The notes beneath the pieces were generated by a model that saw only the letters and a list, made by a program, of their open reading frames with translations, was not told the DNA's origin and searched no databases. Positions 4,430-7,332 of a stretch of 23,093 bases of DNA are shown in pieces (the stretch's first letter is position 1; every line of letters begins with the position of its first letter). This DNA is from an uncultured archaeon (GTDB taxonomy: Archaea > Asgardarchaeota > Thorarchaeia > Thorarchaeales > Thorarchaeaceae). The translations under genes were made by a program, and so were the position numbers. The stretch lies in assembly GCA_964354495.1 (NCBI GenBank), contig CAYHAA010000026.1, positions 1-23,093 of the forward strand, given 5' to 3'.

Positions 4430-4462
4430 GAGAGTCCATTTTCAATCAGGACAGAGAAGTGA

Positions 4463-4485
4463 TGGCGCCGAGGACGAGATTTCAA
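4463..4485 (-). repeat. Displaced copy of the tRNA-Ser 3' end (att-like direct repeat)
   Basis: The minus strand reads TTGAAATCTCGTCCTCGGCGCCA. 4463-4482 matches 7184-7203 at 19/20 nt. There is no 5' T-stem or other tRNA portion upstream of it. Confidence 0.85.
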
Positions 4486-4680
4486 GCTGGCTAACATTTA
4501 TCTCAGAAACTAGTAGATATTCTAGGACGAATGCTTTCAGAAACAGAGTCAAGTCTGGTTTGAGAATGAATAATCACCTGTGAAAGAGCTGGTAGTTGAC
4601 CAACTTCGAGTTCTTCATTCTTACCTCTTGATTTCCCAGAATAGATATATTCGATTGCCATCTTTCCAAATACAGGGGCA

Positions 4681-6843
4681 ATGATAATGCTACGTGGTTC
4701 GCGTGCCTATCTTTTGTTTTTGTTAATTCTTGTTGTTTCACTTCTTTTTATACAAAAAGTGGACCCAGTATCGGACCAGACACTGTCTACTGAATATGAA
4801 ACTCCTGATTTCATCCCTGTGCTCTCTGAATATACCAACCATAGTCCAATAGAAATCTGGTCCAATCAGGACTTCGAGGATCAGGGTTGGCCTGGTAATG
4901 GGACTGCTGATAACCCCTACATCATCGAAGGCTTGAACATTACATCTGATGGGAGATGTATCACAGTTTTCGATACTACTGTCTACTATAGAATTACAAA
5001 CTGTCGCCTCTCATCATTCGGCGATCGTAGCAATGCTGGAATTCGAACTCAGAATGCCTCATATGGTTCCATTAGCAATTGCATCATTGATACGCATAGT
5101 GAAGGCATTCTCTTAGGAGAAAATTCAAATTACTGCAATGTGACCAACACGATTTGTTACAACAATCTGTTTCTTGGAATTCAGATCAATGGGGACCACT
5201 GCTTAGTCTGTAACAATACTTGCTTCGGCAATTTCATTGGGATTATCGCAGGTGGTAATCAGTACTGCATAGTCTATGAAAATAATTCAACTTTGAATCA
5301 TGGTGGAATTTCAGTATCTTCAAGTCAATTTACCTATGTCCACAACAACACGGTCGTTCGAAATTTCGAGCGCGGTCTACAGGTTGGTTTCTCTGAGTAT
5401 TGCATAATTGAGCAGAACTACGTTTTCAAGAGTGGTACTGACGGGATCTTTCTAGACCATGCAGAAAATTGTACATTCATCGAAAATACTGTCCTAAATA
5501 ACACTGAACGTGGATTCTATATTGAAGATACGATGTACTGCGAATTCCAGTCTAATCTTGCAGCAAACAATACATGGGAAGGTTTCTGGTTGTATGATTC
5601 TGATTCTAACACCTTTATAGAGAATACTGCAACCCAGAACTCAGGCGCAGGAATTGGTATGAATATATTCTGCTCCGGTAATAGAATGTATCTCAATGAG
5701 CTCAGTCTGAATATCATTAATAATGGTCAGGACTATTCAGGCGCAAACTATTGGGACGATGGAGTTTCAGTTGGAAATTACTGGGACGACTATAATGGGC
5801 GTGGATCTTATGCTGTGGGAGGATCAGGCGGCGCTTATGATAACTACCCCTTCTCCTTGGGCGTTATCCCTTACCTACAGCACCCAGAGGACATTGTTGT
5901 TGAGTACGGTTCCTCTAGCAATTCCATATTCTGGGATGCATATGATGTTGACCCGTCTACGTATCAGCTTTACATAGATGAGGTATTTCAGTTCTCAGAC
6001 GCTTGGAATGGTTCACCCATTGTCATAGACATTTATGGACAAGGAATTTCAAACCATAACTATACACTTGTTGTCGCGGATTCTCTAGGAAATTCGGCGA
6101 CTGATACAGTCTTTGTCACAGTACTTGATACAATTGTCCCCTCGATTGATGATCATTCCAATGTCGTTCTCGAGTATGGATCAACTGGTAACACGATAAC
6201 ATGGATCGCCAATGATCTTGATCCATCTAATTACGAGCTATATGTTAATGGAGAATTACAACTCACAGACACATGGAGCAATTCATCCATAAGCATCGAT
6301 ATCGATGATCTTGCGATCTCAGTCTACAATTTCACAATAGTAGTAGCAGATGGCTCAGGTAATTCTGCGTCTGACACCGTCCTTGTTACTGTACAGGACA
6401 CCATTTCACCCCTGGTCGAAAGCCCTTCTGACATTGAATTCGAAGAAGGAGAAACTGGACACAATATCACATGGGTTTCATTTGACCTAGACCCAGGGAC
6501 TTACATCATCTATAGAAATGCGGTAGCTATCGTAAATGAAGTCTGGAACACATCTCAAATCTCCATTTCATTAAACGGACTCTCTGCAGGAACATACAAT
6601 TTCACACTGGTATTGTTTGATAGTAGTGGTAATACCGCAGTGGACTATGTTATTGTGACAGTTGTCACTTCTACCTGCACATCATCAACAGCGACAAACC
6701 CACCCTCAACAACACCAACCAATCCTGACGAAGTCGATTCGCAAATGATTTTGGTGATAGCTGGACTAGGTAGCGTCATTGCGGTGGTTGCGGTCATCGT
6801 TGTCATTATGTTTAGGAAGGGAAAAGATGATGGCATGCCTTAA
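4681..6843 (+). CDS. Cell-surface protein: signal/anchor, NosD-like right-handed beta-helix, three Ig-like repeats, S/T linker, C-terminal TM anchor
   Basis: Hydrophobic N-terminus. Asn-ladder repeats (NxxxxNxxxGxxL). Three ~85-90 aa repeats ending GNSATDTVFVTV, GNSASDTVLVTV and GNTAVDYVIVTV. Then TSSTATNPPSTTPT, and a TM segment followed by RKGK. Confidence 0.85.
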   Translation: MIMLRGSRAYLLFLLILVVSLLFIQKVDPVSDQTLSTEYETPDFIPVLSEYTNHSPIEIWSNQDFEDQGWPGNGTADNPYIIEGLNITSDGRCITVFDTTVYYRITNCRLSSFGDRSNAGIRTQNASYGSISNCIIDTHSEGILLGENSNYCNVTNTICYNNLFLGIQINGDHCLVCNNTCFGNFIGIIAGGNQYCIVYENNSTLNHGGISVSSSQFTYVHNNTVVRNFERGLQVGFSEYCIIEQNYVFKSGTDGIFLDHAENCTFIENTVLNNTERGFYIEDTMYCEFQSNLAANNTWEGFWLYDSDSNTFIENTATQNSGAGIGMNIFCSGNRMYLNELSLNIINNGQDYSGANYWDDGVSVGNYWDDYNGRGSYAVGGSGGAYDNYPFSLGVIPYLQHPEDIVVEYGSSSNSIFWDAYDVDPSTYQLYIDEVFQFSDAWNGSPIVIDIYGQGISNHNYTLVVADSLGNSATDTVFVTVLDTIVPSIDDHSNVVLEYGSTGNTITWIANDLDPSNYELYVNGELQLTDTWSNSSISIDIDDLAISVYNFTIVVADGSGNSASDTVLVTVQDTISPLVESPSDIEFEEGETGHNITWVSFDLDPGTYIIYRNAVAIVNEVWNTSQISISLNGLSAGTYNFTLVLFDSSGNTAVDYVIVTVVTSTCTSSTATNPPSTTPTNPDEVDSQMILVIAGLGSVIAVVAVIVVIMFRKGKDDGMP

Positions 6844-6844
6844 A

Positions 6845-7152
6845 GCAAACATAGAGGCGTCTTTTCCAATCACTGTCCTGCATCACGAAGGCCACATGAC
6901 ACCGGGGACAGACCACCACCATCTCACCAGCAGCTAGGTCCTGCTTGCCAGCTCTGCGGAGGGTCTTCCATTGACCACCGTAGCTCCAGGAGGCTCGATC
7001 TCGACAACTTTAAACCCAATGAGCCGACCAGCAAGAGATACATCGAATTAATTGTCTTCCAATAATGGAGCTCCACTAAGATTCCATCTCAAATTATCTG
7101 TTAGACGATCAAAGTCAAAGTAGTGTTTGCTATCGACTGGTATTAAGACAGG
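6845..7152 (-). pseudogene. Degraded gene: CDC48 N-terminal subdomain 2-like region followed by a RING-like zinc-finger remnant
   Basis: Manual translation gives VLIPVDSKHYFDFDRLTDNLRWNLSGAPLLEDN*FDVSLAGRLIGFKVVEIEPPGATVV (TAA at 7050-7048). A shifted frame then gives KQDLAAGEMVVVCPRCHVAF, and another shift gives *LEKTPLC. No start codon after the tRNA. Confidence 0.55.
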
Positions 7153-7183
7153 TCAGCGATTATTTGTCAATCTAAGAGAGAAA

Positions 7184-7332
7184 TGGCGCCGAGGATGAGA
7201 TTTGTTCGATTCCACGAGATGTAGACTTCTTTGAACTCATGCGTGACAAGCACACCGGTTGCCTTGGATACCAGCTTCCGAAGAAACCGGTTTTCAAGAC
7301 CGGCGCCGTAATCCGAGCTTGGCTACCTCGGC
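7184..7332 (-). tRNA. tRNA-Ser (anticodon UGA) with two introns: 7261-7292 (32 nt, position 37/38) and 7202-7230 (29 nt, position 58/59); CCA encoded
   Basis: Acceptor stem GCCGAGG/CCTCGGC with discriminator G and CCA. Anticodon arm CCGGT-CTTGAAA-ACCGG. Variable arm T-GTG-CTTGT-CAC-GC. T arm ATGAG-TTCAAAT-CTCAT after splicing. Mature length 88 nt. Both introns are flanked by bulge-helix-bulge-type motifs. Confidence 0.93.

What the first reader, a model, noticed from the sequence alone, without database searches (positions are those of the whole stretch)
6845..7152. Hidden pseudogene joining a CDC48/p97 N-subdomain-like region to a RING-like finger
Seen: no ORF is called here, but one minus frame reads ...NLSGAPLLEDN*FDVSLAGRLIGFKVVEIEPPGATVV. 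This parallels the p97/CDC48 N-domain pattern (RP...GDxFxV......EFKVVETDP). Shifted frames then give GEMVVVCPRCHVAF and *LEKTPLC, which resemble RING Cys spacing. Known: Asgard archaea encode ubiquitin-system E3-like RING proteins and CDC48. Inference: a small adaptor or E3-like gene of a ubiquitin-segregase system decayed inside the island, truncated at the tRNA end.
Basis: partly seen in the sequence, partly recalled or inferred. Interest (0 to 1): 0.6.

Follow-up and report, generated by a model that had tools for sequence, protein, structure and literature searches.

The report
Broken small zinc-knuckle gene in island
The stretch is leftover debris at the tRNA end of a decayed inserted element in a Thorarchaeota (Asgard) genome: its one identifiable piece is a broken copy of a lineage-specific 53-residue cysteine-knuckle gene, not a RING finger, and the CDC48-like resemblance beside it is weak and belongs to no shared gene.

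Summary

- **'RING' strings.** GEMVVVCPRCHVAF and LEKTPLC belong to a broken copy (about 6840-7007, core 6870-6981) of a Thorarchaeota-only small gene of 51-56 aa. nhmmer gives E=2.5e-33. Intact relatives show third-position wobble and are annotated as hypothetical proteins.
- **How the copy is broken.** It has no in-frame start, a +1 shift near 6983 and a -1 shift near 6869. No RING profile hits it.
- **CDC48-like reading (6967-7089, across a TAA).** It scores 17-20 bits against Pfam CDC48_2, below the 22.4-bit cut-off, with genome-wide E=0.0036. Neither protein search (1.84 billion representatives; 5.8 billion clusters) found a close or combined homologue. A profile of the genus's own CDC48 gives E=1.2.
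- **Setting.** Everything lies inside a 2.7-kb, low-GC, integrase-less insertion (4483-7182). It is flanked by 20/21 repeats of the 3' end of the tRNA-Ser gene and is absent in a relative.

This is ordinary decay and of low interest.

The parts
6840..7007 (-). Decayed copy of a Thorarchaeota small zinc-knuckle gene (family length 51-56 aa). The TTG at 7007-7005 matches the family's start codon but is out of frame with the core. There is a +1 shift near 6983 and a -1 shift near 6869. The stop TAA at 6842-6840 lies in the frame of the TTG.
   Evidence: An nhmmer profile of 7 family loci aligns to 7010-6848 with E=2.5e-33. The codon-level alignment shows the two shifts and the diverged ends. The protein alignment is A1.
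6870..6981 (-). Well-preserved core of that copy. It encodes WKTLRRAGKQDLAAGEMVVVCPRCHVAFV and is 82-89% identical in DNA to copies in other species.
   Evidence: blastn against L010-L018 and L025-L030.
6815..6922 (-). Residual 36-codon ORF (MVVVCPRCHVAF...CFKACHHLFPS). It starts at an internal Met of the family and overlaps the 3' end of the convergent gene. It is probably not a gene.
   Evidence: Pfam gives only weak zinc-ribbon hits (E=0.0025-0.04, all below cut-off).
6967..7089 (-). CDC48_2-like reading that runs across a TAA at 7048-7050. It is sub-threshold and may be either a remote gene relic or chance.
   Evidence: Similarity. Narrow-profile control. Codon-usage score.
6982..7182 (.). 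Orphan 200-bp spacer (40% G+C) between the small-gene fragment and the tRNA end. It has no DNA relative in the 40 related genomes searched and no sign of RNA structure.
7184..7332 (-). tRNA-Ser(UGA) gene with an encoded CCA and two introns. ARAGORN and Rfam both miss it.
   Evidence: Searches find nothing.
7183..7203 (.). att-like repeat, proximal copy. It is the last 20 nt of the tRNA gene plus one base.
4462..4482 (.). att-like repeat, distal scar copy (20 of 21 identical).
4681..6843 (+). The island's only intact gene: a 720-aa protein with right-handed beta-helix and PKD/Ig-like repeats. By eye it has hydrophobic N- and C-terminal segments.
   Evidence: Pfam Beta_helix E=3.2e-37, NosD, K319L-like_PKD.

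Best explanation
Window 6845-7152 is non-functional debris at the tRNA-proximal end of a decayed integrated element that has lost its integrase.

Shown:
- A foreign segment (4483-7182, 42% G+C against 48.6% for the window) sits between two copies of the last 20 nt of a tRNA-Ser(UGA) gene.
- Inside it, next to the tRNA, lies a broken copy of a small gene found only in Thorarchaeota. The family encodes 51-56 aa, with consensus MCxTIELKSGARWKTLRRAGKQDLAAGEMVVVCPRCHVAFVVKDRExEV.
- The copy keeps a well-preserved 112-nt core, but it is cut off from its start codon by a +1 shift and from its normal C-terminus by a -1 shift. Both ends have diverged.

Inferred:
- The segment entered by site-specific integration into the tRNA gene's 3' end and later lost its integrase and most of its cargo.
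- The remaining 200 bp between the fragment and the tRNA is orphan DNA. Its CDC48_2-like reading is either chance or an unrelated, far-diverged relic. It was never part of the same gene as the cysteine knuckle.
- Nothing here works as a ubiquitin-system part.
For: - Small-gene identity: nhmmer E=2.5e-33. blastn gives 82-92% identity to 15 loci in other genomes.
- The family is a real coding gene. Substitutions sit at third positions, one copy has a 3-nt indel, and a paralogue has ATG where the others have TTG. NCBI and JGI annotate 51-56-aa hypothetical proteins of Candidatus Thorarchaeota.
- Breakage: the frame-C ORF has no start codon before Met29. The +1 and -1 shifts appear in the codon alignment. 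The family's 5' module does not match the window. Family near-invariants C2 and I5 are lost.
- Other truncated or chimeric copies exist elsewhere: L017, L018, L029, L030, P0013, P0014, P0016.
- Island: 20/21 direct repeat at 4462-4482 and 7183-7203. One relative has thiolase, 699 bp, then the tRNA, where the window has 2,754 bp. Relatives carry similar scars. G+C is low.
- No RING.
- No combined or close homologue of the CDC48-like piece.
- No CDC48_N match in the window.
Against: - The CDC48_2 hit is the third best in the genome and about 60-fold better in E-value than the next noise hit.
- In all 28 genomes of the genus the fragment's best six-frame match is a CDC48 gene.
- The same frame has the best codon-usage score of the six, at the level of real genes: 0.21 against an in-frame mean of 0.21. 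Part of the 'orphan' DNA may therefore be a true gene relic.
- The sharp drop from about 87% to about 55% identity at both ends of the core fits a chimeric fragment better than uniform decay of a whole gene. The TTG 'start' and the terminal frame may then be coincidence.
- No reads could be mapped, so assembly errors at the two shifts are not excluded.
Confidence: 0.72

Rival explanations
1. Mosaic of two independent relics. Besides the small-gene fragment, 6967-7152 would be a true, far-diverged remnant of an element-borne gene with a CDC48 N-domain-type beta-clam (CDC48_2). That gene would be truncated at the island's tRNA-side boundary, with no relation to the zinc knuckle.
For: - Pfam CDC48_2 scores 18.9-19.7 bits, E=6.8e-4 to 3.6e-3, and ranks third genome-wide.
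- A 45-residue ungapped alignment to the genome's own CDC48 runs across the stop codon.
- CDC48 is the best match in all 28 genus genomes.
- It has the best codon-usage score of the six frames.
- None of the 8 other reading-frame fragments across 6844-7236 hits any Pfam family at E<=1.
Against: - The score is below Pfam's cut-off.
- A profile of the genus's own CDC48 gives E=1.2. The pairwise E-value scaled to the genome is about 0.02-0.2.
- A full HMMER search of 1.84 billion representatives finds only giant cadherin/Ig repeat proteins, through summed weak repeats. A cadherin-repeat start matches about as well (16/40) as CDC48 does (15/45).
- The language-model recognition score is at the level of shuffled sequence.
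- The codon score is reached by 6% of shuffles and by 14% of ORF-free stretches.
- No CDC48_N match in the window.
Confidence: 0.27
2. One reading: one decayed gene that joined a CDC48 Nc-like domain to a RING-like finger, acting as an adaptor or E3 of a ubiquitin-segregase system.
For: The two readings are adjacent on the same strand. The CDC48_2 profile match ends (6967) close to where the small-gene homology begins (6981-6984).
Against: - No RING profile match. The PDB profile search gives a RING chain only at E=7.8.
- The cysteines belong to a free-standing 53-aa gene with its own conserved upstream module and start codon.
- In no relative does homology extend upstream of 6981.
- The search for longer proteins found only one unrelated chimera, P0016.
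- No combined homologue among 1.84 billion representatives.
Confidence: 0.02
3. The 36-codon ORF 6815-6922 (MVVVCPRCHVAF...CFKACHHLFPS) is a live, newly shaped small zinc-ribbon gene rather than a dead fragment.
For: - The frame is open for 65 codons.
- The shifted C-terminus adds a second Cys pair plus His residues. This gives a CPxC-x17-Cx3C layout loosely like MJ0042-type ribbons, with weak Zn_ribbon hits at E=0.0025-0.04.
Against: - All profile hits are below their cut-offs.
- The second pair is Cx3C, not CxxC.
- The start is an internal Met of the family, and the family's conserved upstream module is missing.
- It overlaps the convergent gene by 32 nt.
- None of the homologues recovered carries this C-terminus.
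Confidence: 0.06

Closest known systems
Integration scars and decayed integrated elements at archaeal tRNA genes. SSV-type and pNOB8-type elements are cited from my own knowledge. Integration next to tRNA genes in Asgard genomes is reported in PMC8813620.
   Same: The tRNA gene's 3' end is duplicated as direct repeats bracketing foreign, lower-GC DNA. The site recurs in relatives, and the cargo has decayed.
   Different: No integrase or integrase fragment is left. Only one intact gene remains, and the element type cannot be named.
MJ0042-type / Zn_ribbon_4 small zinc-ribbon proteins (TIGR02098, PF13717)
   Same: The family's M-x3-CPxC-x3-F-x-V-x-D segment matches the first knuckle of these ribbons: profile positions 1-19, E=0.002-0.004.
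   Different: The scores are below cut-off. The second CxxC knuckle is missing; the family instead has Cys2 plus His37 (or Cys17 in the 43-44-aa paralogues). The AlphaFold model has low confidence (pLDDT 64.7).
CDC48/VAT/p97 N-terminal Nc subdomain (Pfam CDC48_2, PF02933)
   Same: A 41-45-residue stretch aligns without gaps to profile positions 11-51 and to the genome's own CDC48. This includes the G-x-x-I-x-F-K-V-x-x-I-x-P-P-G motif.
   Different: The score is under the cut-off and the stretch contains a stop. No CDC48_N barrel was found in the window, and no ORF that could hold an ATPase domain follows the stretch; the AAA profile was not run. There is no close relative anywhere.
RING finger (zf-C3HC4 PF00097, zf-RING_2 PF13639)
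   Same: Only that it contains a CxxC pair.
   Different: There is no eight-ligand cross-brace and no profile match.

Membership tests
RING finger (PF00097 / PF13639) | Profile match at or above the curated cut-off | tested here: not met
   The six-frame genome-wide searches list no hit in the window at E<=10. hmmscan of the repaired frames at E<=1 lists no RING family.
RING finger (PF00097 / PF13639) | Eight zinc ligands in a C3HC4-type cross-brace spacing within one frame | tested here: not met
The intact family has only Cys2, Cys33, Cys36 and His37. The window ORF reads CxxCH-x16-Cx3CHH.
CDC48_2 domain (PF02933) | Profile score at or above the gathering cut-off of 22.4 bits | tested here: not met
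   17.2, 18.9 and 19.7 bits.
CDC48_2 domain (PF02933) | Preceded by a CDC48_N double-psi barrel in the same gene | tested here: not met
   The PF02359 six-frame search finds only the two real CDC48 genes. The place where the barrel would lie is occupied by the tRNA gene.
CDC48_2 domain (PF02933) | Uninterrupted reading frame | tested here: not met
   TAA at 7048-7050 lies inside the match.
Thorarchaeota 51-56-aa CPxCH small-protein family (unnamed; P0001-P0012) | Significant sequence homology to family members | tested here: met
   nhmmer E=2.5e-33. blastn gives 82-92% identity over 57-113 nt.
Thorarchaeota 51-56-aa CPxCH small-protein family (unnamed; P0001-P0012) | Start codon (TTG or ATG) in frame, followed by Cys2, I5 and G10 | tested here: not met
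   The TTG at 7007 is out of frame with the core. Frame C has no start before Met29. The N-terminal residues have diverged.
Thorarchaeota 51-56-aa CPxCH small-protein family (unnamed; P0001-P0012) | Conserved upstream module of about 42 nt (TAGGTCCTTTTCAAT...GGTGTAC) | tested here: not met
   A profile of the family's 5' part gives no listed hit at 6800-7200 at E<=1000.
Thorarchaeota 51-56-aa CPxCH small-protein family (unnamed; P0001-P0012) | GEMVxxCPxCH knuckle and F-V-V-x-D | tested here: met
   GEMVVVCPRCHVAFVMQD in frame C.
tRNA-targeting integrated element | Direct repeats of the tRNA gene's 3' end bracketing the segment | tested here: met
   4462-4482 and 7183-7203, 20 of 21 identical.
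tRNA-targeting integrated element | Segment absent at the same site in a relative | tested here: met
   In G010 (L005) the thiolase stop lies 699 bp from the tRNA end, against 2,754 bp here.
tRNA-targeting integrated element | Integrase gene within the segment | tested here: not met
   The only long ORF is the beta-helix protein, and it has no recombinase family hit.

The most novel reading that the evidence does not exclude
The CDC48_2-like stretch would be a genuine relic of an element-borne protein with a CDC48 N-domain-type beta-clam that once worked together with, or was fused to, the zinc-knuckle small protein. Asgard mobile elements would then have carried a segregase-adaptor-like gene. 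A weaker variant is also open: the small zinc-knuckle gene, with its separately repeated 5' module and its many fragments at different sites, is itself a mobile mini-gene.
Probability: 0.05. Interest if true: 0.45.

Novelty: new member of a known kind. Interest (0 to 1): 0.15.

Why it matters
It matters mainly as a correction. A tempting eukaryote-like reading (CDC48 plus RING in an Asgard genome) dissolves into an ordinary broken copy of a lineage-specific small gene inside an integration scar, so this locus gives no evidence about ubiquitin or segregase evolution.

Two minor points have some value. The first is an uncharacterised family of 43-56-aa cysteine-knuckle proteins, restricted to Thorarchaeota, that leaves many fragments in intergenic DNA. 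The second is further evidence that this tRNA-Ser gene is a recurrent integration site in the genus.

Tried and rejected
- **tRNA and RNA families:** ARAGORN and Rfam on the window found nothing. The tRNA was recognised by eye and confirmed by alignment with relatives.
- **RNA structure:** folding 6985-7182 (-) and 6844-7182 (+) gave z-scores of +0.39 and +1.24, so there is no structured RNA.
- **Other frames:** Pfam, PHROGs and NCBIfam scans of the other reading frames of the stretch gave no hits.
- **Integration target idea:** I considered that an element integrates into the small gene, because G010 holds a 5' half (L018) and a 3' half (L017). I rejected it because L018's flank holds housekeeping genes (by eye, ribosomal protein L44e and Sec61-beta), not an element.
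- **~400-aa ORFs:** I tested whether the CDC48-like piece derives from the ~400-aa ORFs of the genus that carry weak CDC48_2 hits. There is no similarity.
- **G+C jump:** The jump at about 6984 (60% against 40%) is not proof of a junction, because intact family genes also have a GC-rich core.
- **Structure:** The AlphaFold model of the family has low confidence (pLDDT 64.7), so no fold search was made.
- **ESM Atlas:** It gave only a low-feature lead for the family (the zinc ribbon of Mut7-C) and nothing for the CDC48-like piece.

Full report
**Observation.** The window is a whole 23,093-bp contig (C26) of a 3.3-Mb genome in 51 contigs. Protein relatives place it in Candidatus Thorarchaeota.
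- Frame A reads PVLIPVDSKHYFDFDRLTDNLRWNLSGAPLLEDN (7152-7051), then TAA (7050-7048), then FDVSLAGRLIGFKVVEIEPPGATVVNGRPSAELASRT (7047-6937).
- Frame C is open from 7009 to 6815 and contains GEMVVVCPRCHVAF.
- Frame B reads LEKTPLCLL and then a stop (6869-6840).
- No ORF with a start codon longer than 50 aa lies in the stretch.

**The cysteine strings belong to a small lineage-specific gene.**
- A DNA search of 40 relatives showed that window 6870-6981 is 82-89% identical to a sequence found on unrelated contigs of same-genus genomes. I fetched nine such loci.
- They share a ~210-bp unit. In the intact copies substitutions fall overwhelmingly on third codon positions (CCC/CCT/CCG/CCA, GTG/GTT/GTA, GCC/GCT). 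One copy has a clean 3-nt deletion. The frame is closed upstream of a conserved TTG in one copy.
- A more distant paralogue in the window's own genome (contig C22) has ATG at that very position.
- The unit is therefore a protein-coding gene of 51-56 aa, with consensus MCxTIELKSGARWKTLRRAGKQDLAAGEMVVVCPRCHVAFVVKDRExEV.
- The protein database holds 14 relatives. Every one that carries an organism name is from Candidatus Thorarchaeota or Promethearchaeota, all are hypothetical proteins, and none has a Pfam domain. A metagenome scan added six more loci.
- A profile of seven family loci hits the window at 7010-6848 with E=2.5e-33. The only other hit in the genome is the C22 paralogue.

**The window copy is broken.**
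- In the codon-level alignment the family's AAG-TTG start context is recognisable at 7010-7005.
- One extra base near 6983 puts the well-preserved core (6981-6870) into another frame. One missing base near 6869 returns the reading to the first frame, which ends in LEKTPLCLL-stop at 6840. The TTG and this stop are thus in the same frame, and the total length is within two codons of the family's.
- The frame that carries the core has no start codon before the family's internal Met29.
- The N-terminal residues that are nearly invariant in the family (C2, I5) are lost.
- The family's conserved upstream module does not match the window.
- Identity falls from about 87% in the core to about 55% at both ends. 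The copy may therefore be a fragment joined to other DNA rather than a whole gene that decayed evenly.
- Truncated or chimeric copies with other breakpoints are common elsewhere: L017, L018, L029, L030, P0013, P0014 and the 146-aa P0016.
- At the syntenic site where several relatives carry the intact gene, this genome has none.

**It is not a RING.**
- The frame-C translation and an intact family member give only sub-threshold matches to the first knuckle of zinc ribbons: Zn_ribbon_IS1595, Zn_ribbon_4 and MJ0042_CXXC, with E=0.002-0.004.
- A family profile against all PDB chains finds assorted zinc knuckles. A RING chain appears only at E=7.8.
- Six-frame searches of the whole genome with zf-RING_2 and zf-C3HC4 report nothing in the window at E<=10.
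- The intact family has four possible ligands, not eight.

**The CDC48-like reading: evidence for.**
- The 37-aa piece scores 17.2 bits (E=0.0041) against Pfam CDC48_2. With the stop read as X it scores 19.7 bits (E=6.8e-4). The curated cut-off is 22.4 bits.
- In a six-frame search of the genome it is the third hit, after the two true CDC48 genes (18.9 bits, E=0.0036). The next hit has E=0.25.
- It aligns over 45 ungapped residues (33% identity) to the Nc subdomain of the genome's own CDC48, across the stop.
- In all 28 genomes of the genus its best six-frame match is a CDC48 gene (E=0.007-0.2).
- This frame also has the best codon-usage score of the six, equal to the mean of real genes.

**The CDC48-like reading: evidence against.**
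- A profile built from the genus's own CDC48 scores it at only 9.3 bits, E=1.2, barely above noise. It is therefore not a recent copy of a host gene.
- No CDC48_N match is found in the window.
- A full HMMER search of 1.84 billion representatives returns only three giant cadherin/Ig repeat proteins. Their scores are sums of many weak repeat matches. A cadherin-repeat start matches about as well (16/40) as CDC48 does (15/45).
- The language-model recognition value is in the range of shuffled sequences.
- The codon score is reached by 6% of shuffles and by 14% of ORF-free stretches.
- I put a true, remote relic at about one in four.

**The two readings are not one gene.**
- Every relative of the small gene, intact or partial, shares DNA with the window only between 6981 and 6863.
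- The search for longer proteins that contain the small-gene sequence found one unrelated chimera.
- No relative of the CDC48-like piece other than CDC48 itself was found in the genus or in any fetched locus.

**Setting.**
- The last 20 nt of a tRNA-Ser(UGA) gene (7184-7332, minus strand, CCA encoded) recur at 4463-4482 with one mismatch, in the same orientation.
- ARAGORN and Rfam miss this tRNA gene because it has two introns. Relatives that lack one or the other intron reveal them.
- The 2.7 kb between the repeats has 42% G+C against 48.6% for the window.
- This segment holds one intact gene, a 720-aa beta-helix/PKD protein. It holds no integrase.
- In one relative the thiolase gene lies 699 bp from the tRNA end, against 2,754 bp here. 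Other relatives carry one or two scar copies of the same 20 nt downstream of their tRNA gene.
- Integration next to tRNA genes is documented in Asgard archaea (PMC8813620).
- Earlier notes of this scan on the same window reached the same reading of the island and the tRNA gene. I derived mine before reading them.

**Verdict.** The stretch is decay debris at the tRNA end of an integrase-less island. One securely identified component is a broken copy of a Thorarchaeota small zinc-knuckle gene. The other is an orphan 200 bp whose CDC48_2-like reading is unproven. The CDC48-RING adaptor or E3 model is not supported.

**Limits.** The structure model of the family has low confidence.

Noticed in passing
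L010:2418-2630 and relatives (L011-L016, L025-L028); own genome contig C22 = L037:2332-2463 (-): An uncharacterised Thorarchaeota family of 43-56-aa cysteine-knuckle proteins. 16 of 28 genus genomes give DNA matches, and many of those matches are fragments. The conserved ~42-nt upstream stretch together with the first codons (positions 3-92 of the ~210-bp unit) recurs on its own. Examples are three copies within 12 kb of G013 contig C10, which belong to a 43-aa paralogue; one of them has TGA in place of Trp13.
   Followed up: partly
window 7184-7332 (-): A tRNA-Ser(UGA) gene with an encoded CCA and two introns, one between the anticodon arm and the T arm and one in the T-loop. ARAGORN and Rfam both miss it. 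Relatives L004 and L008/L009 each lack one of the introns.
   Followed up: partly
L003:849-868 and 62-81; L006:2284-2303; L009:2337-2356: Relatives carry one or two degenerate extra copies of the tRNA gene's last 20 nt, 550-1440 nt downstream of it. This tRNA-Ser gene is therefore a recurrent integration site in the genus.
   Followed up: partly
own genome contig C4, about 172776-172903 (L038): At the site where L011, L013 and L016 carry the intact small gene plus a 121-aa ORF, this genome has only about 128 bp. The pair behaves as a presence/absence cassette, and L014/L015 show a synteny break at the same point.
   Followed up: partly
L031:1129-2316, L033:1102-2331, L034:1129-2322: A family of ~380-416-aa ORFs in the genus gives weak CDC48_2 matches (15-22 bits, with some copies in other genomes reaching the cut-off) in its N-terminal third. 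The rest of the protein was not identified.
   Followed up: no
window 4681-6843 (+): The island's cargo gene encodes a 720-aa protein with a right-handed beta-helix, three Ig/PKD-like repeats and, by eye, hydrophobic N- and C-terminal segments. It is probably a surface protein brought in by the element. No DNA match in the fetched loci that carry the small-gene unit (L010-L018).
   Followed up: no
L013:88-1695 (+) and its orthologue on own contig C4: A 535-aa P-loop protein next to the small gene in several genomes matches a PHROG of unknown function (E=7e-14) and terminase/FtsK-like PHROGs. The usual neighbourhood of the small gene may itself be of mobile-element origin.
   Followed up: no
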